A stretch of DNA of 32,000 nucleotides, from contig JAVYNJ010000001.1 of assembly GCA_038735675.1 (NCBI GenBank), forward strand, positions 16,408-48,407. The letters are read 5' to 3'. The position numbers and the translations under genes were made by a program. Below the pieces are notes generated by a model that saw only the letters and a program-made list of their open reading frames with translations, was not told the origin of the DNA and searched no databases. This DNA is from Nanopusillaceae archaeon (lineage in GTDB: Archaea; Nanobdellota; Nanobdellia; Nanobdellales; Nanobdellaceae). Below are positions 19 to 13,278 of this stretch, piece by piece. Within the stretch, counting starts at the first letter, position 1. Each line of letters begins with the position of its first letter.

Positions 19-92
19 TGGGGCCGCCGGGATTTGAACCCGGGACCACCGGCACCCCAAACCGGCATCCTTCCAAGCTGGACGACGGCCCC
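19..92 (-). tRNA. tRNA-Pro, anticodon GGG
   Basis: The reverse complement reads GGGGCCG-TC-GTCC-AGCTTGGAA-GGAT-G-CCGGT-TTGGGGT-GCCGG-TGGTC-CCGGG-TTCAAAT-CCCGG-CGGCCCC-A. This folds into a full cloverleaf. The 7-nt anticodon loop is TTGGGGT, so the anticodon is GGG with G37. CCA is not encoded. The gene is strongly GC-rich in an AT-rich background. Confidence 0.85.
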
Positions 93-101
93 TTTAAATA
101 A

Positions 102-174
102 AGCCGCGGCCGGGATTTGAACCCGGGGCCTTTGCCTTACCAGGGCAACGCTCTACCAGCTGAGCTACCGCGGC
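102..174 (-). tRNA. tRNA-Thr, anticodon GGU
   Basis: The reverse complement reads GCCGCGG-TA-GCTC-AGCTGGT-AGAGC-G-TTGCC-CTGGTAA-GGCAA-AGGCC-CCGGG-TTCAAAT-CCCGG-CCGCGGC-T. This is a canonical cloverleaf. The anticodon loop is CTGGTAA, so the anticodon is GGT. CCA is not encoded. Confidence 0.85.
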
Positions 175-176
175 AC

Positions 177-1826
177 TTATTTAAGATATTCTTCAATTTT
201 ATTCCAACTTATTTTTAAGTTTTTTAATAATTCAACAAAAGTAGAAAGTGACCATAATTGAGAAATTGCTCCAGAGATATCTCTATTTTTGGCAGAAGAT
301 AATTCTGGAAGAGTTCCTATATCTTTTAGGTATTCAATAGAAGAGTTTAATATTTTGTTTATGTAATACTTGTACTTTTCACTATTTAGATCGTTCATAC
401 AAATTGCAGCAATGTGATTCAGATATATCCATGAATCTCCTCTATGCATAGATTTTTTACTATCTATAAAATTGGCATCTCCATTATTTTCTTCAATAAA
501 TTCGTAATCAAGTTTTGATAAAGATGAAAGGCCCCCCCATTCCAACCATAAATGATTTAATGAATAATCAAAAATTTTTTCCCATTTTTCTTTTGATAGA
601 ACATCTTTTTTTATATAGTAACATAAAAATACGTTTGGTCTTATTCTATATTCTTCAAAAGTATCAACTAAACTATTATCTTTTAAATATCGTTTTTCCA
701 CATTATCTTTTAAATCTAAATATAAATCTCTATATCTTTCGTCTCTTTTTATTCTATAAAGATTTTCATAAATATTCATAACTAAAAATTGAAGTTCTAT
801 TGGATATTTTCTATTTAAAGTATCCATCCAGCTTTCATTTGGAAAAGAAACAAATAATTTTGTTTTTGGATCATAATGAGTTTCTGTGAATTTAGGTAAA
901 TTATCTTCTACTATATTTACTAATTTTAAGAACTCTTCTTTTGAAAATATATATTCAAAATCAAAAATTCTTTTAGCATACAATCCGAAGCTGTCAGAAT
1001 TCCCATTTAATCCATCAAAAATTAGATTTTTCATTTTTCCATTTGGCAAAATATATTTAGAATATTCTATTAATTTTTCTTTTACAAAAGATTTGCCAAG
1101 AATATAGTAAAGCCCTTTTAGAGATATTAGAACATCTCTAGACCACTCTTGATAATACCAGGGATAACCTACAGATATCCAATCATGAATGAAAGATTTT
1201 ATTCTTTCTTCAATTAGATTTTTTGATTCTTTTTTATAATAATCTTTAATTTTTGGATTTCTTATTAAAGATATAATTAATTTCTTTCCTTTAATGGTAA
1301 AAGGACAGTATAAATATCTTTTAAATGGTGGAGAATTTCTTTTTTCATCAAAGTCATAATAAATCTCTACCCACTTATCTTTATTTTCGAAAATACTTGA
1401 AAATCCAGTTAAATATACCCTAACAAAAAGATCATTCTTTTTAAACTCTATATTTGCCATATTAGAAGTTATTTGATAATTATATATTCTTCCCCACTCT
1501 TCTGTATCGTATATATCTTTTATATCAAAGAATATCTGAATTTTTGAAATTTTTTTAGTTTCATAAAGTAATCCAAACTTAAACAATTTGTAAATTTCGT
1601 AATTATCTTTATAAAATATTTTTAATGTGTCAGAGCCATCTAATATTATTTTTTCTGGTTTTTCTACTATATTTAAATTTTTTAAATGATCTAAGATTTT
1701 TATATATCTTTTATTGTATGGAAAAAATAAGCCAAAAAATCTACTGTATCTTTTTAGTGACAAAATAAAGAAACTACCGTTTTTTGATAAAAATGCAAAA
1801 TCTCTATTTCTTAATTCAAGTTCCAT
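177..1826 (-). CDS. Glycogen debranching enzyme, amylo-alpha-1,6-glucosidase (GDE C-terminal domain) type
   Basis: 549-aa ORF. Motifs GYPWYYQEWSRDVLISLKGL, HRGDSWIYLNH and GAISQLWSLSTFVELL match the (alpha/alpha)6-barrel signature of archaeal/eukaryotic GDE_C proteins. It sits in a glycogen gene cluster. Confidence 0.65.
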   Translation of the reverse strand: MELELRNRDFAFLSKNGSFFILSLKRYSRFFGLFFPYNKRYIKILDHLKNLNIVEKPEKIILDGSDTLKIFYKDNYEIYKLFKFGLLYETKKISKIQIFFDIKDIYDTEEWGRIYNYQITSNMANIEFKKNDLFVRVYLTGFSSIFENKDKWVEIYYDFDEKRNSPPFKRYLYCPFTIKGKKLIISLIRNPKIKDYYKKESKNLIEERIKSFIHDWISVGYPWYYQEWSRDVLISLKGLYYILGKSFVKEKLIEYSKYILPNGKMKNLIFDGLNGNSDSFGLYAKRIFDFEYIFSKEEFLKLVNIVEDNLPKFTETHYDPKTKLFVSFPNESWMDTLNRKYPIELQFLVMNIYENLYRIKRDERYRDLYLDLKDNVEKRYLKDNSLVDTFEEYRIRPNVFLCYYIKKDVLSKEKWEKIFDYSLNHLWLEWGGLSSLSKLDYEFIEENNGDANFIDSKKSMHRGDSWIYLNHIAAICMNDLNSEKYKYYINKILNSSIEYLKDIGTLPELSSAKNRDISGAISQLWSLSTFVELLKNLKISWNKIEEYLK

Positions 1827-1878: not shown

Positions 1879-3096
1879 ATGAGAATATTATTTTTAAGTT
1901 GGGGGGTCTTACCACAAAAAACTGGAGGTTTGGAAAAAGCAACATACTATTATTTAAAATACTTTGATCAATTTAATCACAATGTTTATCTTATTATTCC
2001 AAACATAAATGATGACATAAAAAATTTTTGGCAAAATAAACTAAAAAATTCTAAAATTATTGGTTTGAATATTGATATAAGTAAAATTTCATCTTATTTT
2101 AATTTATTTACTATTATAAGACAAAGTAAGAGTATATTTTCTAAAATAAAAACTATAATCGATTATAAAAGAGCTGTTTTTGAATATAGAGATAAACTAA
2201 TTAAGTTTTTGGAAAACGAAAAGCTAGAATTTGACGTTATCTATTCTTACGATTGGTTAACAATTCCTGCAGCAATAGAGATAAAAAACAGATATAAAAA
2301 ACCTCTAGTCTGGCATGTTCACCAAACAGCTTATGATAGAGTCGGCGGAAATATAGAACATTTGAAATATCTTTTAGATCATGATTATGGAATAGAATTA
2401 GAAGCTTGTAAATTAGCAGATAAAATTATAGCTGTTAGTAATAGAGTAAGAGATATTTTGATAAAATATTACAATTGTGATCCAAAAAAAGTAGAAGTTG
2501 TTTATAATGCTCCAGATGATAATTTTCAAATTAAAAAGAAAAATTGGTATAAAATTAAACAAAAATACAAAATTGTATTATATCTTGGAAGAATGACAAT
2601 GCATAAAGGTCCAGATTGGTTATTAAAAGCAGCTAAAAGGGTTTTGGATATCAGAAAAGATGTTTTATTCATATTTGCTGGTCATGGAGAGATGTTAGAA
2701 CAACTTATAAAAATGTCAGCTGAAATGGGAATCGGAAGAAACGTAATTTTTACAGGATGGGTAGATGACGAGTTAGCAGAGTTTTTGTATGATATTGCTG
2801 ATGTTTTTGTTTTGCCATCAGTTTCAGAGCCTTTTGGTCTTACTCCTTTTGAGGCTTTACAGAGAGAAAATGCAATTATAATTACAAAACAATGTGGTGT
2901 TTCAGAAATCCTAAAAGATGCAGCAATAGTGGATTTTTGGGATACTTATAAAATGGCTGATTATATTTTAGCTTTTCTAGAATATCCAAAGCTTAGAAAT
3001 TTTGAAATAATGAATTGTTTAAGAAATTTAAATAATCTTTCTTGGTTAGATTCTTCTAAAAAAGTAGAGGAGATATTAAGAAAGGCCATATTCTAA
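1879..3096 (+). CDS. GT-B glycosyltransferase resembling archaeal (Pyrococcus-type, GT5/GT4) glycogen synthase
   Basis: 405 aa. The N-terminus MRILFLSWGVLPQKTGGLEKA matches the MKVLLLGFEFLPVKVGGLAEA pattern. It also has YDWLTIPAA...VWHVHQT and a C-terminal VLPSVSEPFGLTPFEALQ motif (E-x7-E region). The collinear resemblance to archaeal GlgA is judged from memory. Confidence 0.6.
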   Translation: MRILFLSWGVLPQKTGGLEKATYYYLKYFDQFNHNVYLIIPNINDDIKNFWQNKLKNSKIIGLNIDISKISSYFNLFTIIRQSKSIFSKIKTIIDYKRAVFEYRDKLIKFLENEKLEFDVIYSYDWLTIPAAIEIKNRYKKPLVWHVHQTAYDRVGGNIEHLKYLLDHDYGIELEACKLADKIIAVSNRVRDILIKYYNCDPKKVEVVYNAPDDNFQIKKKNWYKIKQKYKIVLYLGRMTMHKGPDWLLKAAKRVLDIRKDVLFIFAGHGEMLEQLIKMSAEMGIGRNVIFTGWVDDELAEFLYDIADVFVLPSVSEPFGLTPFEALQRENAIIITKQCGVSEILKDAAIVDFWDTYKMADYILAFLEYPKLRNFEIMNCLRNLNNLSWLDSSKKVEEILRKAIF

Positions 3097-4281
3097 TTGC
3101 TCTCTTTTTTCTGTCGATAATTTTGATTCTATATCCTTTAAAATATTCATAAATGATATATAAGCATCGTAAGGTGTTTCAAAAGCCTCTTCTCTAAAAT
3201 ATTTATGCACATCTCCATCAGCATTGTATTTTAAGCTCATATAATACAAATTATCAGATGTAGATAGATATCTTAAAACTCTTAATGCTTCTTTGTTATT
3301 CTGCCTTTTTGCAATTTCAAAAAGATCTTTCAAATAAGAAAGAGCTTCACTTTGTATAGAATCTCCTAACCAAGCCGATAAATCTCTCTCTATATCAGCC
3401 CAGGATATAATTTCTGGTATGTCTAGTTCTCCAACGGGTGCGAATTTATAAGATGCTTCTGAAACTGTGTAAGTTTCGAAATAATCACTTTCTCCAATTA
3501 ATTCAAATAATCTATTAAAAAATTCGAATATTCCGGATTCTGGCCAAAGATGTTCTCCAATAGTTTCAAAATCCATAAATATATTTATAATATCTCCAGG
3601 GGTTTGTAATAACCAATTAAAATATTTATCAGCATTTAAAGGATAATGTTCCCAATTTGGGTTTCCAAACCTAAAAGCTATATCGTCAGATAGTCTATAA
3701 TTTCGTGGTAGCAATCTTAAATTAACTCTTTTTGCTTTATAAACATAATTAGGGCTTCTCCATTTTAGAACTTTTTCAGTACCTTCTATTAAGGCTGTAT
3801 GAAATCCTAAAGAGTATGCAATTTCTCCTATTTCGTTATTATAAGCTAATTCAAAATTTCTAAAGGCTTTTGGAGAATATCCAAATACCTCTCTTATTTT
3901 GTTTATATGTAGCTTTACTTGTTCTTTAAATTCTTCTTTATCAATTAAATAAGAAACGGAATGATAATAAGTTTCTCCAAGAATTTCAACATTTCCAGTA
4001 TCTACTAGTTCTTTCCATAGATCTAAAATTTCTGGATGCCAAGATTCTAATTGTTCGATTAAAGTACCTGTAATTGAAAAAGAAAACTTTAGATTATACT
4101 CATAAATAGCATTTAGTATCATTTGAAGAGCTGGTTTGTAACATTTATTTACTACTCTATCTAATATTCTCTTATTTACCTCGTCATTGAAATAGTTGCT
4201 TTCCTTTAACATATCGAAAAATGAAAAATATCTTATCCTTCTAGGCTGATGAGCATGAAAGTAGAAAACCAATCCGGTCAT
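3076..4281 (-). CDS. Glycoside hydrolase family 57 protein (alpha-amylase-like subgroup)
   Basis: 401 aa. The N-terminus is FYFHAHQPRRIRYF (GH57 region 1, HQP). Other regions present are GTLIEQLE, FRNFELAYNNE (candidate nucleophile Glu), FMDFETIGEHLW (region 4) and STSDNLYYM (region 5-like). Confidence 0.75.
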   Translation of the reverse strand: MTGLVFYFHAHQPRRIRYFSFFDMLKESNYFNDEVNKRILDRVVNKCYKPALQMILNAIYEYNLKFSFSITGTLIEQLESWHPEILDLWKELVDTGNVEILGETYYHSVSYLIDKEEFKEQVKLHINKIREVFGYSPKAFRNFELAYNNEIGEIAYSLGFHTALIEGTEKVLKWRSPNYVYKAKRVNLRLLPRNYRLSDDIAFRFGNPNWEHYPLNADKYFNWLLQTPGDIINIFMDFETIGEHLWPESGIFEFFNRLFELIGESDYFETYTVSEASYKFAPVGELDIPEIISWADIERDLSAWLGDSIQSEALSYLKDLFEIAKRQNNKEALRVLRYLSTSDNLYYMSLKYNADGDVHKYFREEAFETPYDAYISFMNILKDIESKLSTEKREQLEYGLS

Positions 4282-4316
4282 AAAATCTTAATAAGATAAA
4301 AAATTATAAAGTTAAT

Positions 4317-4610
4317 ATGAAATATTTTGTTAAAAGAGAAGAAGAAGCTTTTATTACCGTTGATGGACAAAAACTCTATACTATTCAAGATTTAATATTA
4401 TGGTTAATAGGTTGTTCTGAGGCTAGCTTCAGATATCATGTAAATGAAAAAGCAAATCATTTTTTTGATTGGATAAAAAATTCTATAGGTTCGGAAGCTC
4501 TAGCAAATAGAATAAAAAATATAAAGAATAAGGAAGAAATGATTAGAATATTGGAAAATTTTATTTATAAGACAGAGGCCGATAAAAGAACTATTATACA
4601 AGAAATATGA
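4317..4610 (+). CDS. Small hypothetical protein (97 aa), first gene of the ParA/GT3 operon
   Basis: The ORF's stop overlaps the next gene's start (ATGA at 4607-4610). The protein is soluble. Its motif FRYHVNEKANHFFDWIKNSIGSEALANRI is vaguely reminiscent of an uncharacterised family seen next to GH57/glycosyltransferase genes, but I cannot confirm the family. Confidence 0.4.
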   Translation: MKYFVKREEEAFITVDGQKLYTIQDLILWLIGCSEASFRYHVNEKANHFFDWIKNSIGSEALANRIKNIKNKEEMIRILENFIYKTEADKRTIIQEI

Positions 4611-5287
4611 TAATAAATGTTATTTCTTTAAAAGGTGGTGTGGGAAAAACTACTATTTCAATAAATTTAGCAGCATATTTAAGAAAGGAATACAACAAAA
4701 GAATTCTTTTGGTAGATTCTAATTTTAATAATTACTCAACTAAATTATTTTCTAAATTTAAGCTTAAAGAATATGGAGAAAGATTGTATAACGGTATATA
4801 TCCTCTAAAATACTTCCATTTAAAGATTTTGAGATCAATACCAAAAGAAATAGAAAAAGATCTGGAATTATTAAAAAGATATTATGATTATATAATATTC
4901 GACTTACCTAATGATCTAGAAATAATATTAAATTTTGAAAAAGTATCTAATTTAAATTTACTAATACTAAATTCAGATATATTTTCTTTATTTTCTAATT
5001 ATTATCTATTTCAACTTTTAGATAAAAATAAAACAAAGCTGATATTAAACAAGTATGATGGAAATAAAGAGATTATAAAGTTTATTGAGAGAAAATTTGG
5101 AAAAAATGTTTCTACAGTTATTTCTTTTGACAAAGAAATAGAAAAAATTAATTATAATAGAATTCCAATAATCTATTCAAAAAGCAAAAGAAAAATAATA
5201 AAAGAATTTGATGAATTAGCTAGTTTAATAACTGGAAAAAGGAAAAAATTCTCTATTTTTGAAAGAATACTTTCTTTATTCCTATGA
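4607..5287 (+). CDS. ParA/MinD-family P-loop ATPase (deviant Walker A)
   Basis: 226 aa. The N-terminus IINVISLKGGVGKTTISINLA carries KGGxGKT with the signature lysine. LLVDSN serves as Walker A', and YDYIIFDLPN as Walker B. It overlaps both neighbouring genes by 4 nt. Confidence 0.7.
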   Translation: MIINVISLKGGVGKTTISINLAAYLRKEYNKRILLVDSNFNNYSTKLFSKFKLKEYGERLYNGIYPLKYFHLKILRSIPKEIEKDLELLKRYYDYIIFDLPNDLEIILNFEKVSNLNLLILNSDIFSLFSNYYLFQLLDKNKTKLILNKYDGNKEIIKFIERKFGKNVSTVISFDKEIEKINYNRIPIIYSKSKRKIIKEFDELASLITGKRKKFSIFERILSLFL

Positions 5288-6966
5288 AAATTTTTGAAGA
5301 GTCTTGGGAAGTATGTAACAAAGTTGGTGGAATATATACTGTATTAAATTCGAAAGCACAATACTTAAAAGAAAAATATTCAGAAAATTATGTTCTAATT
5401 GGTCCATATCAAAAAAATTTGATAGAATTTGTAGAAGATAATATACCTGCAGAGCTTGAAGGAATATATAAAAATTTATTGAGTAGGGGAATTGTATTAC
5501 ATTATGGATATTGGGATATTAAAGGAAAACCAAAAGTTTTTTTAATAGATTTTCATGATTTCTTTAGAAGAGAAATCAATTATTGGAAGTATAAATATTG
5601 GGAATGGTATCAAATAGATTCTCTTAACTCCGATTACACTTATGATGAGCCCTTTGCATGGTCAGTGGCTGTAGGAATCTTTTTAGAAGAATTAGACAAA
5701 ATCTACAACTTTAAAAAAATATTACATGCACATGAATGGTTATCTGGAGGAACAATACTTTATGTAAAAGCGAAAAATCTAAATTACAAAACAATATTTA
5801 CGACGCATGGAACTGTCATAGGTAGAACTATCTCTTCTAGAAATCTAGATATTGTGAAACTAATCGATAAAATTGAAGCAGATAAAGAAGCGTATAGTTT
5901 AAAAGTTCATTATAAACATCAAATGGAAAAAAATTCAGCAAAATATAGTGATATATTTACAACGGTATCTGAAATATTGTCTATGGAAGCTGAAAAGTTT
6001 TTAGGAAGAAAACCAGATAAAATAATTTACAATTCTATTTCTATAGAGGAAAAAGATATAAAAAAAGAGTATCTTACGTCTAGAAGATGGTTAGAAGAAT
6101 TCGTTTTATGGTATTTTATGCCATACTATGAAATAGATTTGAAAAAAACAATTTTTATATATACTATTGGCAGATACGAGTTTTATAATAAGGGAATAGA
6201 TTTAATAATTGATTTAATGAAATATCTTAATCACTCGAACATAGATAAAAATATAATTCTATTTTTATTTATTCCTACCGGAATTTCGGGAGTTTCTAAA
6301 AATGTTTTGAGATTATATAATAATTATCAATTCTTAAAAGAATTTTTTGAACTAGAAAAAATAGAAATAATTAAATTTTTAATGAGAAAAGATTATGAAA
6401 AAATAAAATATATTTTTGAAGAATATTTACCAAAAGTTTCTAAAAGTAGTAAGCCAAGTATAGTAACTCATGATTTGTATGATAAATCGGATCTAATTTT
6501 GAATAAATTGATAGAATCTGGATTGGACAATGAAGAAAAGGACAAAGTGAAAGTCGTATATGCTCCAGTTTATATAGGCCAAGATATAATATTCAATTTA
6601 CCTAAAGAAAAAATTTTAAGTGGATTCGATATTGGTATTTTTCTGTCAAGATACGAGCCTTTTGGTTATACAGCTTTAGAAAATATATATTACGGAATTC
6701 CAACAATTATTTCTGATAAAACCGGATTTTCTTTATCTCTAAAAAACAAAGGAATAGAGAGTAAAAATATACTTTTAGTAGATATAAATAATTTTAATGA
6801 AGAAATGGAAAAGATAAAAGATTTTATTTTTTATATATCAAATTTGGAATTTGAAAAATATTTGGAAGTCAAAAAGGAAATTTTTAATATTTCTAAGTTT
6901 TACGATTGGAAAAAAGAGATAAATAATTATATAGATATTTATGAAGCATTAAATAATTTACAATAA
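5284..6966 (+). CDS. Glycogen(starch) synthase, GT3 (eukaryote-type) family
   Basis: 560 aa, collinear with yeast/animal glycogen synthase blocks. Matching pairs are:
- FEESWEVCNKVGGIYTVLNSKA with FEVATEVANRVGGIYSVLKSKA.
- HAHEWLSGG...IFTTHGTVIGR with HFHEWLAG...IFTTHATLLGR.
- SDIFTTVSEI...AEKFLGRKPD.
- GRYEFYNKGIDL.
- PSIVTHDLYDKSDLILNKL.
- SRYEPFGYTALE with SYYEPWGYTPAE. Confidence 0.88.
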   Translation: MKIFEESWEVCNKVGGIYTVLNSKAQYLKEKYSENYVLIGPYQKNLIEFVEDNIPAELEGIYKNLLSRGIVLHYGYWDIKGKPKVFLIDFHDFFRREINYWKYKYWEWYQIDSLNSDYTYDEPFAWSVAVGIFLEELDKIYNFKKILHAHEWLSGGTILYVKAKNLNYKTIFTTHGTVIGRTISSRNLDIVKLIDKIEADKEAYSLKVHYKHQMEKNSAKYSDIFTTVSEILSMEAEKFLGRKPDKIIYNSISIEEKDIKKEYLTSRRWLEEFVLWYFMPYYEIDLKKTIFIYTIGRYEFYNKGIDLIIDLMKYLNHSNIDKNIILFLFIPTGISGVSKNVLRLYNNYQFLKEFFELEKIEIIKFLMRKDYEKIKYIFEEYLPKVSKSSKPSIVTHDLYDKSDLILNKLIESGLDNEEKDKVKVVYAPVYIGQDIIFNLPKEKILSGFDIGIFLSRYEPFGYTALENIYYGIPTIISDKTGFSLSLKNKGIESKNILLVDINNFNEEMEKIKDFIFYISNLEFEKYLEVKKEIFNISKFYDWKKEINNYIDIYEALNNLQ

Positions 6967-6980
6967 ATTATAAATATAAT

Positions 6981-7559
6981 ATGGTAACATTCTCGGAATT
7001 TATGATTAATCTTTTTCAAAAACTTGGAATATATTATATATTCTCAATTATATTTATAGCGCTTGTAGTTTACGTATTATCTTTAAACTTGCTAAAAAAG
7101 TTTTCTAAAGACTTTTTAGATGATAAGAAAATAAATGTTATATCTATTTTAATTTCAATATCTGTAGCAATTCTAGCATCTTCTTTATATAGAATATCCC
7201 ATATGTTTTCTTATTTTTTAGCTCTTGTATCTTCTATGACAGTTGTTTTATTATTTACTTATGCTATACTTATATTTTTTGTTGATAAAAAACCTACAGT
7301 TTCAGAAACGGGAGTTAGAAATATATTTATAGTAATTTTGTTATTGATAACATCTTTTATTTTTATAAGTTTTTATTTTGCTTTTCAGGATGTTTTATAT
7401 CCTCTAATTTATAGCGGTAGTTCTCAGGAAGGTTTAGGAGGACAATACGATATTTTTTCACATATTTTTAGAGCAGAAATATTGATAATTCCATTTTTAT
7501 TTGTAATTATGGGTTTAGCAATAATGGTTTTAGGAGCCGGACAAGATAAAAATAAGTGA
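6981..7559 (+). CDS. Hypothetical multi-pass membrane protein
   Basis: 192 aa with about 5 hydrophobic segments. It begins 14 nt after the GT3 synthase on the same strand. I recognise no family. Confidence 0.4.
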   Translation: MVTFSEFMINLFQKLGIYYIFSIIFIALVVYVLSLNLLKKFSKDFLDDKKINVISILISISVAILASSLYRISHMFSYFLALVSSMTVVLLFTYAILIFFVDKKPTVSETGVRNIFIVILLLITSFIFISFYFAFQDVLYPLIYSGSSQEGLGGQYDIFSHIFRAEILIIPFLFVIMGLAIMVLGAGQDKNK

Positions 7560-11442: not shown

Positions 11443-13278
11443 ATGAATATGGACCTAACAGAGATATTAAAATTTAATACTACAGAAGAAATAAAAGTTC
11501 CTGATAAAATAATCGATCAAATTATCGGTCAGGATCATGTTTTAGATATAATAAAAAAGGCAGCTAACCAAAGAAGACATTTATTGCTTATTGGAGATCC
11601 AGGAACTGGAAAATCTATGGTAGCACAAGCTTTAGCAGAATTAATATCTGAAAATAAGGACTTTGTGAAGAATTTGCAAGATTTTCTAGTTTATCCAAAT
11701 CCAAAGGATGAATATCAGCCCATTATAGTTACAACACCTGCGGGATATGGTAAGAAAATAGTTGAGGAGATTAGAAAGAGAGAGGAAGAAAAAATAAGAG
11801 CATATCAAATATATTATTATATAATTCTAATTATTGCAATTTTAACGCCATGGTATTTTTACAGTATTGGAAATATGATAATGGCAGCAGCTACCTTTAT
11901 AGGATCTATGATTCTTTTTGCAGGATTGTCTTTTTCTTTTCAAGCTATTCAAAAGCAAATCTATAGAAAAATACCAAAACTATTGATAGATAATTCTGAT
12001 AAAAAATCTGTTCCCTTTATAGATGCTACAGGGGCTCATGAAGGAATGTTATTTGGAGATGTATTGCACGATCCCTTTCAATCTGGTGGTCTTGAAACTC
12101 CAGCTCATCAGAGAGTTATAGCTGGAGCAATACATAAAGCTCATGGAGGTGTTTTGTTTGTAGATGAAATAGGTACATGGAGACCGGAAGTTCAAATAGA
12201 ATTATTAACAGTACTTCAAGAAAAGAAGTATCCAATATATGGAAGATCAGAAAGAAGTGCCGGATCTATGGTTAGAACAACTCCTGCACCATCTGATTTT
12301 GTTCTAGTTGCTGCAGGAAATATAGAAACAATAAAACATCTACATCCAGCTTTAAGATCTAGAATAAGAGGATATGGATATGAAATATTGATGAACTCCG
12401 AAATAGAATTTAATGAAGAAAATATTAAAAAATTTGCTCAATTTGTAGCTCAGGAAGTTGGTAAAGATGGAAAAATACCCCATTTTACGAGAGATGCTGT
12501 TATAGAAATAATTAAAGAAGCTCAAAGAAGAGCGGGAAGCAAAAGATATCTATCTCTTAGATTAAGAGATTTGGGAGGATTAATAAGATTGGCTGGAGAT
12601 ATAGCAAAAGCAAAGAATAAGAAATATGTGGAAGCAGAGGATGTTTTAGAAGCTAAAAGGGCTGCAGCAACTTTAGAAGAAAAAATAGTTAAGGATTATA
12701 TCAAAAAAAGAAAAGAATATGAAATAATAAAGATTAGAGGGCATGAAGTTGGAAGAGTTAACGGTTTGGCAGTAATTGGATCTAGATTATTCTATTCAGG
12801 TGTAGTTTTACCCTTAGAAGCTGAAGTTGTTCCAGGAAAGGGTAGGGGAAAGATATTTGCCACTGGAAATCTAGGAAAAATAGCTAAAGAAGCTATATTG
12901 AATGTTTCTACAGTCGTTAAGAAGTTATATAAGGAAGATCTCAAAAAGTATGATGTTCATGTTCAGTTTTTACAAACTTATGAGGGAGTAGAAGGAGATT
13001 CTGCATCTATAGCTGTAGCAACAGCAATAATATCTGCATTAAAAGGATGGAAAATAAGGCAAGATTTAGCAATGACCGGATCTTTATCTATTAGAGGTGA
13101 AGTTTTGCCAGTTGGAGGGATTATAGCTAAAGTTGAAGCTGCTGTTGAAGCTGGATTAAATGAAGTTATAATTCCAGAATCGAATAAGGAAGATGTTCCA
13201 GACTATTTAATAGATAAAATAAAGATATCTCCAGTAAAAAATATAGAAGAAGTTATAGATATTGCAATAGCCAAATAG
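11443..13278 (+). CDS. lon: Archaeal membrane-anchored Lon protease (LonB)
   Basis: It has Walker A (GDPGTGKS) and Walker B (LFVDEIG). Two TM helices are inserted in the AAA+ module ([14 protein letters not shown]...MILFAGLSF). The protease domain carries the catalytic Ser ([16 protein letters not shown]) and the Lys region ([10 protein letters not shown]). Confidence 0.9.

What the first reader, a model, noticed from the sequence alone, without database searches (positions are those of the whole stretch)
4317..5287. Small unknown protein plus ParA/MinD ATPase, translationally coupled to the GT3 glycogen synthase: a candidate positioning or regulatory module
The three ORFs at 4317-4610, 4607-5287 and 5284-6966 are chained by ATGA stop/start overlaps. 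They are therefore expressed stoichiometrically as one unit.

The middle gene is a deviant-Walker-A ATPase (KGGVGKTT). Members of this family, paired with a small adaptor, position cargo such as plasmids, carboxysomes (McdA/McdB), chemoreceptor arrays and other organelle-like bodies.

A two-gene ParA + small-partner cassette wedged between a GH57 hydrolase and a glycogen synthase has, to my knowledge, no described function. It could partition or space glycogen granules or synthase assemblies in a very small cell. Alternatively it could act as a nucleotide-dependent regulator of the synthase. The 97-aa protein has no recognisable DNA-binding (ParB-like) features.
Basis: inference. Interest (0 to 1): 0.7.

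Follow-up and report, generated by a model that had tools for sequence, protein, structure and literature searches.

The report
Glycogen operon with DUF5752 partner and MinD-like ATPase
In a tiny parasitic archaeon, the glycogen synthase gene is preceded by a small protein that accompanies this type of synthase in many DPANN archaea and some CPR bacteria, and by a MinD/ParA-type ATPase that two separate lineages have inserted at the same spot, which points to an undescribed way of controlling where or when glycogen is made.

Summary
Three ORFs (4317-4610, 4607-5287, 5284-6966) are chained by ATGA overlaps in a Nanopusillaceae (DPANN) archaeon, inside a glycogen cluster (GDE, GT4, GH57, small protein, ATPase, GT3 synthase, 5-TM protein).

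The interpretation needs revising. The 97-aa protein is not a ParA-specific adaptor. It is a single-repeat member of the uncharacterised DUF5752/OrfY superfamily. That domain sits between GH57 and GT3 in 28 of 80 GT3 loci from Woesearchaeota, other DPANN and some CPR bacteria, usually with no ATPase. In three loci it is fused to GH57.

The ATPase is a highly diverged ParA/MinD-family protein. It has no cysteine and carries a conserved basic, amphipathic C-terminal tail like a MinD membrane anchor. It is under purifying selection (dN/dS 0.09) and is one of two paralogs in N. acidilobi. A separate Woesearchaeal clade has an ordinary archaeal MinD in the same slot, apparently recruited independently.

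Best reading: a nucleotide-dependent localisation or assembly switch for the synthase, analogous to BcsR-BcsQ-BcsA. The claim of stoichiometric expression is unsupported: N. acidilobi proteomics detected the synthase but not the small protein or the ATPase. I rate this a new variant of a known kind, of moderate to high interest.

The parts
4317..4610 (+). 97-aa single-repeat DUF5752/OrfY-like protein, the accessory protein of the GT3/GH57 glycogen cluster
   Evidence: ORF. Pfam DUF5752 matches 4 of 6 orthologs, best E=3e-5. The ortholog profile finds 3085 relatives. hhalign against GT3-linked two-repeat DUF5752 proteins gives 99.4%, E=3e-21. AF2 pLDDT 89.5. Best PDB fold match is OrfY 4CSO, prob 0.97. 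dN/dS 0.26.
4607..5287 (+). 226-aa diverged ParA/MinD-family ATPase: K9/K14 deviant Walker A, D37-S-N39 switch, D99 Walker B
   Evidence: Pfam CbiA/AAA_31/ParA/BcsQ. NCBIfam minD_arch and ParA_partition are the best matches but far below cutoff. AF2 pLDDT 88.7. Foldseek top matches are MinD. About 80 Nanopusillaceae orthologs. dN/dS 0.086.
5231..5284 (+). Region encoding the conserved basic, amphipathic C-terminal tail (TGKRKKFSIFERILSLFL), a putative MinD-type membrane-targeting helix
   Evidence: Conserved in all orthologs, net charge +2 to +5, hydrophobic moment 0.45-0.64. Predicted helix 217-225 after a low-confidence linker. Similar tails occur in DPANN MinD homologs and in the L042 MinD.
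5284..6966 (+). GT3-family glycogen synthase (560 aa)
   Evidence: Pfam Glycogen_syn E=3.5e-88 over residues 6-550. 598 relatives in the genome collection. The ortholog Nps_00385 was detected in the N. acidilobi proteome.
6981..7559 (+). 192-aa polytopic (about 5 TM) membrane protein, probably the fourth gene of the operon; specific to Nanopusillaceae
   Evidence: Same strand, 2-33 nt downstream of GT3 in every Nanopusillaceae locus. 26-47% identity. No Pfam family. Annotated with 5 TM in N. acidilobi. Absent after GT3 in the Woesearchaeal clusters.
4282..4316 (.). 35-bp divergent intergenic region between GH57 and the small-protein gene, the only non-coding DNA next to the cassette
   Evidence: Sequence. 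No room for a centromere-like array, and no iterons found.
3076..4281 (-). GH57 alpha-glucan enzyme (401 aa), divergent neighbour; in other lineages it is fused to the DUF5752-like domain
   Evidence: Pfam Glyco_hydro_57 E=5.5e-78. GH57::DUF5752 fusion read directly in L049; same-ORF HMM hits in L051 and L059.
1879..3096 (+). GT4 glycosyltransferase (405 aa) of the conserved GT4-GH57-GT3 set
   Evidence: Pfam Glycos_transf_1/Glyco_transf_4. Co-located with GH57 and GT3 in DPANN, CPR and Bacteroidota loci.
177..1826 (-). Amylo-alpha-1,6-glucosidase (GDE_C/GH133-type) debranching enzyme (549 aa)
   Evidence: Pfam GDE_C E=5.9e-19. Conserved in the cluster.

Best explanation
This is a DPANN-type glycogen (alpha-glucan) synthesis operon. 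The GT3 synthase is accompanied by its widespread accessory protein, a DUF5752/OrfY-like domain that partners GT3 and GH57 in many DPANN archaea and some CPR bacteria. In Nanopusillaceae a dedicated, highly diverged ParA/MinD-family ATPase has been inserted between the two, and a small polytopic membrane protein follows.

Proposed mechanism (inferred):
1. The ATP-bound ATPase dimer docks on the cytoplasmic membrane through its basic, amphipathic C-terminal helices.
2. Through the DUF5752 protein as adaptor, it recruits, stabilises or releases the GT3 synthase, and possibly GH57.
3. Glycogen synthesis is thereby switched or localised in a nucleotide-dependent way, as BcsR-BcsQ does for cellulose synthase BcsA, or as MinD4/FlhG do for motility machinery.

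Shown here: gene order and coupling, family assignments, the DUF5752-GT3/GH57 linkage, the conserved tail, purifying selection, the second paralog, and a second, apparently independent recruitment of a MinD into the same slot.

Inferred: physical contacts, membrane binding, and any effect on synthase activity or location.
For: (1) Coupling is conserved. ATGA/TAATG overlaps occur at both junctions across five genera whose proteins are only 41-51% identical. The ATPase is under purifying selection as strong as the synthase (dN/dS 0.086 vs 0.10).

(2) The small protein is a DUF5752/OrfY domain. This domain lies between GH57 and GT3 in 28 of 80 GT3 loci. It lies directly downstream of GT3 next to two OrfY-sized DUF5752 proteins that I chose by profile score alone. 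It is fused to the GH57 C-terminus in L049, read directly, with same-ORF HMM hits in L051 and L059.

(3) A Woesearchaeal clade (L042, L097, L098, L099, L101; ATPase 70-96% identical to L042's) has an ordinary archaeal MinD (minD_arch E=3e-50) in the same slot. In L042 it overlaps the upstream DUF5752 gene by 4 bp and sits in the middle of a nine-gene glycogen cluster. In a rough NJ tree the two ATPase groups never form an exclusive clade (0 of 100 bootstraps), which suggests convergent recruitment.

(4) The basic, amphipathic C-terminal tail is conserved. Such a tail is the MinD/FlhG/MinD4 membrane-targeting device.

(5) N. acidilobi has a second arCOG00589 paralog elsewhere, so the cluster copy need not carry out housekeeping.

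(6) Among 74 longer homologs the DUF5752-like domain is repeatedly fused to other P-loop ATPases: KaiC in 5, HerA in 6. It therefore often works alongside NTPases.

(7) There is a precedent. BcsR (7 kDa) plus the MinD-like BcsQ form an ATP-bound complex that controls the synthase BcsA.
Against: - No interaction was tested or predicted; a multimer predictor was not available.
- Within Nanopusillaceae the whole region (SBDS, proteasome alpha, TFB, LonB) is syntenic, so conservation there is partly inherited.
- Most DUF5752-GT3 clusters (24 of 28) have no ATPase, so the ATPase is dispensable for the core function.
- In the N. acidilobi proteome the synthase was detected but the small protein, the ATPase and the membrane protein were not.
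- The two generic DPANN MinD loci I sampled have no DUF5752 or glycogen neighbours.
- The tree is a rough NJ tree with long branches.
- GT3 synthases are soluble enzymes, and no membrane step is known for glycogen synthesis.
- The Woesearchaeal clusters lack the membrane protein.
Confidence: 0.45

Rival explanations
1. Glycogen-granule positioning or partitioning, as the first reader proposed (McdA/McdB-like). The ATPase forms a gradient on a surface, the DUF5752 protein marks the granule or synthase as cargo, and granules are spaced or shared between daughter cells.
For: The ATPase belongs to the ParA/MinD family and has a small partner gene. The DUF5752 protein is tied to glycogen enzymes. 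Both catalytic lysines and the Walker B Asp are retained. Archaeal MinD4 positions cellular machinery.
Against: Cells are 100-300 nm across, which leaves little need or room for spacing. The small protein lacks an N-terminal basic ATPase-stimulating peptide and McdB-like features. The amphipathic tail suggests membrane rather than nucleoid binding. Most DUF5752-GT3 clusters have no ATPase. The ATPase was not detected in the proteome.
Confidence: 0.15
2. Hitchhiker. The ATPase does a general MinD-type job (cell polarity, archaellum or host-contact-site positioning) and sits in the glycogen operon only through genome compaction and inherited synteny. The DUF5752 protein works with GT3/GH57 alone.
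For: The whole region is syntenic in Nanopusillaceae. 24 of 28 DUF5752-GT3 clusters lack an ATPase. Generic DPANN MinDs occur in unrelated contexts. In the proteome the ATPase and the synthase behave differently.
Against: A second, phylogenetically separate MinD sits in exactly the same slot in a Woesearchaeal glycogen cluster and overlaps the DUF5752 gene by 4 bp. The overlaps on both sides are conserved across 41-51% protein identity. A second paralog is available for housekeeping.
Confidence: 0.2
3. Local transcriptional regulation. The DUF5752/OrfY-like protein is a DNA-binding regulator of the glycogen genes (the depositors named PDB 4CSO 'OrfY protein, transcription factor'), and the ATPase modulates it.
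For: The PDB molecule name. The gene sits at a divergent promoter region. The fold is small and helical.
Against: The domain is fused to the C-terminus of the GH57 enzyme and to KaiC/HerA ATPases, and often occurs as two or three copies per cluster. The window protein has equal numbers of acidic and basic residues by my count of the translation. Foldseek found no HTH, RHH or winged-helix match.
Confidence: 0.1
4. Chromosome or plasmid partition module (type Ib ParA or SegAB-like) that happens to lie next to glycogen genes.
For: The best PDB sequence match is S. solfataricus SegA (7dut, E=1.8e-8; identified). Its size (220-226 aa) resembles small ParAs. ParA_partition is the second-best NCBIfam model.
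Against: The partner is not a known centromere-binding fold and belongs to a glycogen-linked family. There are no centromere-like repeats and only 35 bp of non-coding DNA. All partition models score far below cutoff (43 vs 180 bits). The tail is MinD-like. The context is chromosomal and conserved, with no mobile-element genes.
Confidence: 0.04

Closest known systems
BcsR-BcsQ-BcsA (enterobacterial cellulose secretion; PMC7840130)
   Same: The operon logic matches: a small protein, then a MinD-like SIMIBI ATPase, then the polysaccharide synthase. The ATPase acts as a nucleotide-bound dimer scaffold controlling the synthase rather than as a partition motor. Pfam CBP_BcsQ matches above its cutoff (30.5 vs 21.3 bits), and BcsQ structures are among the top fold matches.
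   Different: The NCBIfam BcsQ equivalog is far below cutoff (29 vs 158 bits). The Walker A lysine K14 is retained, whereas BcsQ has Thr15. The small partner is a DUF5752 domain, not BcsR. The synthase is a soluble GT3 alpha-glucan synthase, not a membrane GT2 cellulose synthase. There is no c-di-GMP module. The organism is an archaeon.
Archaeal MinD (TIGR01969; e.g. Haloferax MinD4, Pyrococcus MinD)
   Same: It is the best NCBIfam model for all 10 orthologs and the best structural matches are MinDs. A C-terminal amphipathic tail like the MinD4 membrane-targeting sequence is present. The Woesearchaeal counterpart in the same slot is a near-canonical archaeal MinD.
   Different: It scores 46 bits against a cutoff of 201.75. 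It is 30-40 residues shorter. The switch motif is D-S-N instead of D-x-D. It is embedded in a glycogen operon. No MinD cargo of this kind has been described.
OrfY of Thermoproteus tenax (PDB 4CSO) / Pfam DUF5752
   Same: The small protein shares the fold (Foldseek prob 0.97). The sequence link runs through GT3-linked DUF5752 proteins. From memory (Kouril et al. 2008, not verified here), orfY lies between two glycosyltransferase genes of a trehalose operon.
   Different: It has one repeat where OrfY has two. The window protein alone is below the Pfam cutoff (18.4 vs 23 bits). The function of OrfY/DUF5752 is itself unknown.
McdA-McdB (carboxysome positioning) and other ParA-adaptor cargo systems
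   Same: A ParA/MinD-family ATPase is paired with a small, fast-evolving partner encoded next to the cargo genes.
   Different: There are no McdB-like features and no sign of nucleoid binding. The partner also occurs widely without any ATPase. The presumed cargo is an enzyme or polysaccharide rather than a protein shell.
SegA-SegB (crenarchaeal chromosome segregation)
   Same: Similar ATPase size. SegA is the best PDB sequence match. The hosts of these nanoarchaea are Crenarchaeota.
   Different: The match is weak and confined to the N-terminal half. The gene order is reversed, with the partner upstream. The partner family is unrelated to SegB and there is no centromere.

Membership tests
ParA/MinD (deviant Walker A, SIMIBI) superfamily | Deviant Walker A KGGxGK[ST] with a signature lysine and a P-loop lysine | tested here: met
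   SLKGGVGKTT: K9 and K14 are invariant in all orthologs.
ParA/MinD (deviant Walker A, SIMIBI) superfamily | Alpha/beta SIMIBI fold with a Walker B aspartate | tested here: met
   AF2 pLDDT 88.7. 287 PDB matches at E<=1e-3, led by MinD, ParA, FlhG and BcsQ. D99 is invariant.
MinD proper (TIGR01969 minD_arch / TIGR01968 minD_bact) | Score at or above the curated family cutoff | tested here: not met
   46.3 bits vs 201.75; 39 vs 212.9.
MinD proper (TIGR01969 minD_arch / TIGR01968 minD_bact) | C-terminal amphipathic membrane-targeting helix | tested here: inconclusive
   A conserved basic, amphipathic tail and a predicted terminal helix are present. Membrane binding itself cannot be tested here.
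MinD proper (TIGR01969 minD_arch / TIGR01968 minD_bact) | D-x-D switch I motif (MinD D38/D40) | tested here: not met
   D37-S-N39. D-x-N is shared by the DPANN MinD-like homologs and L042. The MinD residue numbering is from PMC7840130 and my own knowledge.
ParABS / type I DNA partition (NF041546 ParA_partition; SegAB) | Score at or above the curated cutoff | tested here: not met
   43 bits vs 180.
ParABS / type I DNA partition (NF041546 ParA_partition; SegAB) | Adjacent centromere-binding protein (ParB, RHH or SegB type) and centromere repeats | tested here: not met
   The partner is a DUF5752/OrfY fold. No iterons were found and only 35 bp of non-coding DNA is adjacent.
Mrp/NBP35/ApbC Fe-S carrier | Conserved CxxC cluster-binding cysteines | tested here: not met
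   Orthologs contain 0 or 1 Cys. The models score 17-23 bits against cutoffs of 348-450.
BcsQ (TIGR03371 / PF06564) | Family-level sequence match | tested here: inconclusive
   Pfam CBP_BcsQ scores 30.5 bits, above its 21.3 cutoff, but in two partial stretches. The NCBIfam equivalog scores 29 vs 157.85.
BcsQ (TIGR03371 / PF06564) | Operon order: small partner, then ATPase, then polysaccharide synthase | tested here: met
   Small protein, ATPase, GT3 synthase with overlapping stop and start codons. The bcsRQA description is from PMC7840130.
DUF5752 / OrfY superfamily (small protein) | Pfam PF19027 gathering score | tested here: not met
   18.4 bits vs 23 for the window protein. 4 of 6 orthologs match at E<=1, best E=3e-5.
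DUF5752 / OrfY superfamily (small protein) | Profile-level homology and shared fold with OrfY (4CSO) | tested here: met
   hhalign 99.4%, E=3e-21, to GT3-linked DUF5752 proteins. Those proteins match 4CSO at E=6.5e-6. Foldseek model vs 4CSO: prob 0.97, TMq 0.5.
GT3 glycogen synthase (PF05693) | Full-length match above the cutoff | tested here: met
   297 bits vs 27, covering residues 6-550.
McdA/McdB-type cargo positioning | Adaptor with a basic or disordered N-terminus that stimulates the ATPase; ATPase binds the nucleoid | tested here: not met
   The N-terminus is short, structured and not conserved as basic. Nucleoid binding cannot be tested here.

The most novel reading that the evidence does not exclude
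DUF5752/OrfY-like proteins are the missing dedicated subunit of prokaryotic GT3 glycogen synthases. They would act as a targeting, priming or regulatory partner, filling the role that glycogenin or glycogen-targeting subunits play for eukaryotic GT3 enzymes. In two DPANN lineages a ParA/MinD ATPase has then been wired to this subunit, making glycogen synthase (or nascent granules) a new class of ParA/MinD cargo organised at the membrane.
Probability: 0.2. Interest if true: 0.8.

Novelty: new variant of a known kind. Interest (0 to 1): 0.6.

Why it matters
Archaeal and DPANN GT3 glycogen synthases have not been characterised. How they start a glucan chain without glycogenin, and what the neighbouring GT4 and GH57 enzymes do, are stated as open questions in a 2024 review (PMC11046441).

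This locus identifies an uncharacterised domain (DUF5752; the held literature has no paper mentioning it) as a recurrent partner of GT3 and GH57. That yields a concrete and cheap set of biochemical tests.

It would also add a cytosolic storage-polymer synthase to the list of things ParA/MinD ATPases control. The apparently independent recruitment in two lineages is the kind of signal that usually marks a real functional link.

For ultra-small ectosymbionts that lack an ATP synthase, control of glycogen is plausibly central to surviving off the host.

Tried and rejected
I rebuilt the alignment from permitted proteins.
- The profile of the small protein did not find OrfY in the PDB by sequence. 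The link needed an intermediate profile.
- Literature searches for DUF5752 and OrfY found nothing, and Kouril 2008 is not held. The orfY operon context therefore rests on memory.
- A search for glycogen granules plus ParA/MinD returned only irrelevant papers.
- Mrp/NBP35 was rejected (no Cys motif). DNA partition was rejected (partner family, no repeats).
- The Soj-type ParAs about 2.6 kb upstream of GT3 in Aenigmatarchaeota (L052, L068, L077, L083) were judged unrelated neighbours. In L052 a GDE gene lies between the ParA and GT3 and the ParA is an ordinary partition type.
- A glycogenin-like Tyr acceptor role for Tyr21 is weakened because that position is not conserved across the wider family: no consensus residue in A7, and mostly Lys in A4 by my reading of the consensus.
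- The generic DPANN MinD loci L092 and L093 showed no DUF5752 or glycogen neighbours.
- Foldseek could not separate MinD, ParA, FlhG, BcsQ and SegA as nearest neighbour; all fall between 1e-11 and 1e-9.
Full report
**Observation.** The window comes from a Nanopusillaceae (DPANN, Nanoarchaeota) archaeon with about 26% GC. ORFs at 4317-4610 (97 aa), 4607-5287 (226 aa) and 5284-6966 (560 aa) are as described, and both junctions read ATGA. Pfam assigns the third ORF to GT3 glycogen synthase (E=3.5e-88) and the second to the CbiA/AAA_31/ParA/BcsQ group. The neighbours are GH57 (divergent, 35 bp away), a GT4 glycosyltransferase and a GDE_C debranching enzyme. A 192-aa membrane protein follows 14 nt after the synthase.

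**Conservation of the trio.** The same order (small protein, ATPase, GT3, membrane protein) is found in:
- N. acidilobi (L001) and N. massiliensis (L003)
- two unnamed relatives (L004, L006/L007)
- Nanoclepta (L008), Nanobdella (L009) and a further contig (L010)
- strain YN1 (L012), Nanobsidianus (L013) and another Nanopusillus (L029)

The stop/start overlaps are kept at both junctions although the proteins are only 41-51% identical. For the closest pair, dN/dS is 0.26, 0.086 and 0.10 for the small protein, ATPase and synthase. The caveat is that SBDS, proteasome alpha, TFB and LonB downstream are also syntenic in these genomes. Conservation inside the family is therefore partly inherited, and evidence from outside was needed.

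**What the small protein is.** Four of six orthologs hit Pfam DUF5752 weakly, with a best E-value of 3e-5. A profile of 21 orthologs, searched exhaustively against 1.84 billion representatives, found 3085 relatives at E<=1e-3. Many carry two copies of the domain or belong to larger proteins. The AlphaFold model is confident (pLDDT 89.5), and its only meaningful PDB match is OrfY of Thermoproteus tenax (4CSO, prob 0.97). At sequence level the ortholog profile matches GT3-linked two-repeat DUF5752 proteins (hhalign 99.4%, E=3e-21), and those match 4CSO at E=6.5e-6. The 97-aa protein is therefore a single-repeat member of the DUF5752/OrfY superfamily, whose function is unknown. No paper in the held library mentions DUF5752.

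**What that domain associates with.** I fetched 80 GT3 synthase loci from one genome per species and scanned them with HMMs built from this locus.
- 28 loci have one to three DUF5752-like ORFs beside GH57 and GT3. These are Woesearchaeota, other DPANN, a Jacksonbacteria (CPR) contig and unclassified bacterial bins.
- In L049, L051 and L059 the domain lies in the same ORF as GH57. I read the L049 fusion directly.
- Two OrfY-sized DUF5752 proteins, picked only by profile score, both lie immediately downstream of a GT3 synthase and next to GH57.
- Bacteroidota and similar loci have GT4-GH57-GT3 with a long GT3 ORF and no DUF5752.
- Among 74 longer homologs there are no glycosyltransferase or hydrolase fusions, but there are recurrent fusions to KaiC-type (5) and HerA-type (6) ATPases.

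The small protein's primary, widespread partner is thus the GT3/GH57 glycogen machinery, not a ParA. The domain also has a habit of working beside P-loop NTPases.

**The ATPase.**
- It keeps the signature and P-loop lysines (K9, K14) and the Walker B aspartate (D99).
- The window protein has no cysteine and no ortholog has a CxxC motif, which excludes Mrp/NBP35.
- NCBIfam models for archaeal MinD and for partition ParA are the best hits for all ten orthologs, but at about 46 and 43 bits against cutoffs of 202 and 180. This is an orphan, shortened clade.
- The model (pLDDT 88.7) resembles MinD structures best, but ParA, FlhG, BcsQ and SegA are nearly as close.
- All orthologs end in a basic cluster followed by an amphipathic stretch (GKRKKFSIFERILSLFL), predicted as a terminal helix after a flexible linker. 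This is the device that MinD, FlhG and Haloferax MinD4 use to bind membranes.
- The switch motif reads D-S-N where MinD has D-x-D. The DPANN MinD-like homologs share D-x-N. I draw no firm conclusion from this.
- N. acidilobi encodes exactly two arCOG00589 ATPases: this one (Nps_00380) and Nps_03280 elsewhere. The cluster copy is therefore a dedicated paralog.

**A second lineage.** In Woesearchaeote L042 the order is GT4, GH57, two DUF5752-like genes, a MinD (minD_arch E=3e-50) overlapping the second DUF5752 gene by 4 bp, GT3, a GalT-like uridylyltransferase, phosphoglucomutase and GDE. Metagenomic relatives whose ATPase is 96%, 76%, 70% and 75% identical keep the arrangement as far as their contigs reach. 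MinDs at about 30% identity have no glycogen neighbours. The L042 MinD aligns end to end with the window ATPase at 26% identity, tail included. In a rough NJ tree it nests among generic DPANN MinDs, while the Nanopusillaceae ATPases form a separate long branch. An exclusive joint clade appears in 0 of 100 bootstraps. Two generic DPANN MinD loci have no DUF5752 or glycogen genes. The simplest reading is that a ParA/MinD ATPase was recruited twice into the same slot between DUF5752 and GT3. This is the strongest argument that the adjacency is functional.

**Mechanism.** The closest described system is BcsR-BcsQ-BcsA. There a 7-kDa protein and a MinD-like ATPase, encoded just upstream of the synthase, form an ATP-bound R2Q2 complex that is essential for, and contacts, the synthase. 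By analogy I propose three steps:
1. The ATP-bound ATPase dimer sits on the membrane through its C-terminal helices.
2. It uses the DUF5752 protein as adaptor.
3. It thereby recruits, stabilises or releases the GT3 synthase (and perhaps GH57), making glycogen synthesis dependent on nucleotide state or place.

All contacts, membrane binding and effects on the enzyme are inferred. The downstream membrane protein is conserved in position in Nanopusillaceae but absent in the Woesearchaeal clade, so it is not a general part of the system.

ATGA overlaps allow translational coupling but do not prove 1:1 stoichiometry. In the N. acidilobi proteome the synthase, GT4 and GDE were detected, but the small protein, ATPase and membrane protein were not. 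Small proteins are often missed, so this evidence is weak, but it does not support stoichiometric expression. A partition function for DNA is unlikely: there are no repeats, only 35 bp of non-coding DNA, and the partner belongs to the wrong family. Granule spacing in cells of 100-300 nm remains possible but is less economical than a localisation or assembly switch.

**Novelty and significance.** I found no description of a ParA/MinD ATPase linked to glycogen synthesis or of DUF5752 at all. The 2024 review of alpha-glucan enzymes states that archaeal GT3 synthases are uncharacterised, that the priming question (glycogenin) is open in DPANN, and that the role of GT4 needs clarification. A 2026 preprint reports glycogen synthase in 55% of complete Woesearchaeales genomes. 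The locus is best filed as a new variant of a known kind: a SIMIBI ATPase plus small partner controlling a polysaccharide synthase. The more general and possibly more important by-product is the DUF5752-GT3/GH57 linkage.

**Limits.**
- No multimer prediction, structure coordinates or experiments were available.
- The OrfY operon context is from memory.
- The tree is approximate.
- Only the best 80 of at least 599 GT3 loci were examined.

Noticed in passing
window 6981-7559 (+): A conserved membrane protein of about 5 TM helices with no Pfam family. It always lies 2-33 nt downstream of the GT3 synthase in Nanopusillaceae (26-47% identity) and is probably the fourth gene of the operon. It is absent from the Woesearchaeal glycogen clusters.
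   Followed up: partly
L049 4128-5636; also L051 and L059: GH57 enzymes carrying a C-terminal DUF5752-like domain, a Rosetta-stone fusion linking the small-protein family to GH57. The fusion was read directly in L049; L051 and L059 rest on same-ORF HMM hits.
   Followed up: yes
P0146, P0161 (KaiC fusions); P0148, P0188 (HerA fusions with CarboxypepD_reg repeats): The DUF5752-like domain is fused to KaiC-type and HerA-type P-loop ATPases in large proteins up to 1970 aa long. Their genomic contexts are unknown.
   Followed up: partly
L064-L066, L072, L075, L076, L079-L091: Bacteroidota, Lentimicrobium, Omnitrophica and similar loci encode GT3 within an open frame of about 1400 codons. Where the upstream flank is present it is often preceded by GT4 and GH57. 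None has a DUF5752 or an ATPase.
   Followed up: no
L042 7722-10166; L098 7719-10096: In the Woesearchaeal MinD-containing clusters, GT3 is followed by a GalT-like (HxHxQ) nucleotidyltransferase and a phosphoglucomutase, and then (seen in L042; partly in L098) GDE. Together they form a nearly complete glycogen pathway in one cluster.
   Followed up: partly
P0083-P0111, L042 4930-5706, window 4715-4723: DPANN MinD-like ATPases share a D-x-N switch motif (for example DANFSAPN) where canonical MinD has D-x-D. The consequence for ATP hydrolysis is unknown.
   Followed up: partly
L003 (N. massiliensis OV100765.1): The locus has the same synteny and nearly the same genome coordinates as N. acidilobi CP010514.1, but almost every gene is broken into fragments. 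This suggests an error-rich assembly of a very close relative.
   Followed up: no
window 11443-13278 vs L004 13300-end and L009 14022-end: The LonB protease is 611-620 aa here and in N. acidilobi, but the called product is 1070-1094 aa in two relatives. An intein is possible.
   Followed up: no
L052, L068, L077, L083 at about 2540-3390: Aenigmatarchaeota-type loci carry an ordinary Soj-type ParA about 2.6 kb upstream of GT3. In L052, the only one examined in detail, a GDE gene lies between the ParA and GT3. Probably a coincidental neighbour.
   Followed up: partly
window 19-92 and 102-174 (-): tRNA-Pro(GGG) and tRNA-Thr(GGT) lie immediately beside the GDE gene.
   Followed up: yes
N. acidilobi Nps_03275/Nps_03280 (not in the window): The second arCOG00589 ParA/MinD paralog is also preceded by an uncharacterised protein. 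Whether that protein is another small partner was not examined.
   Followed up: no
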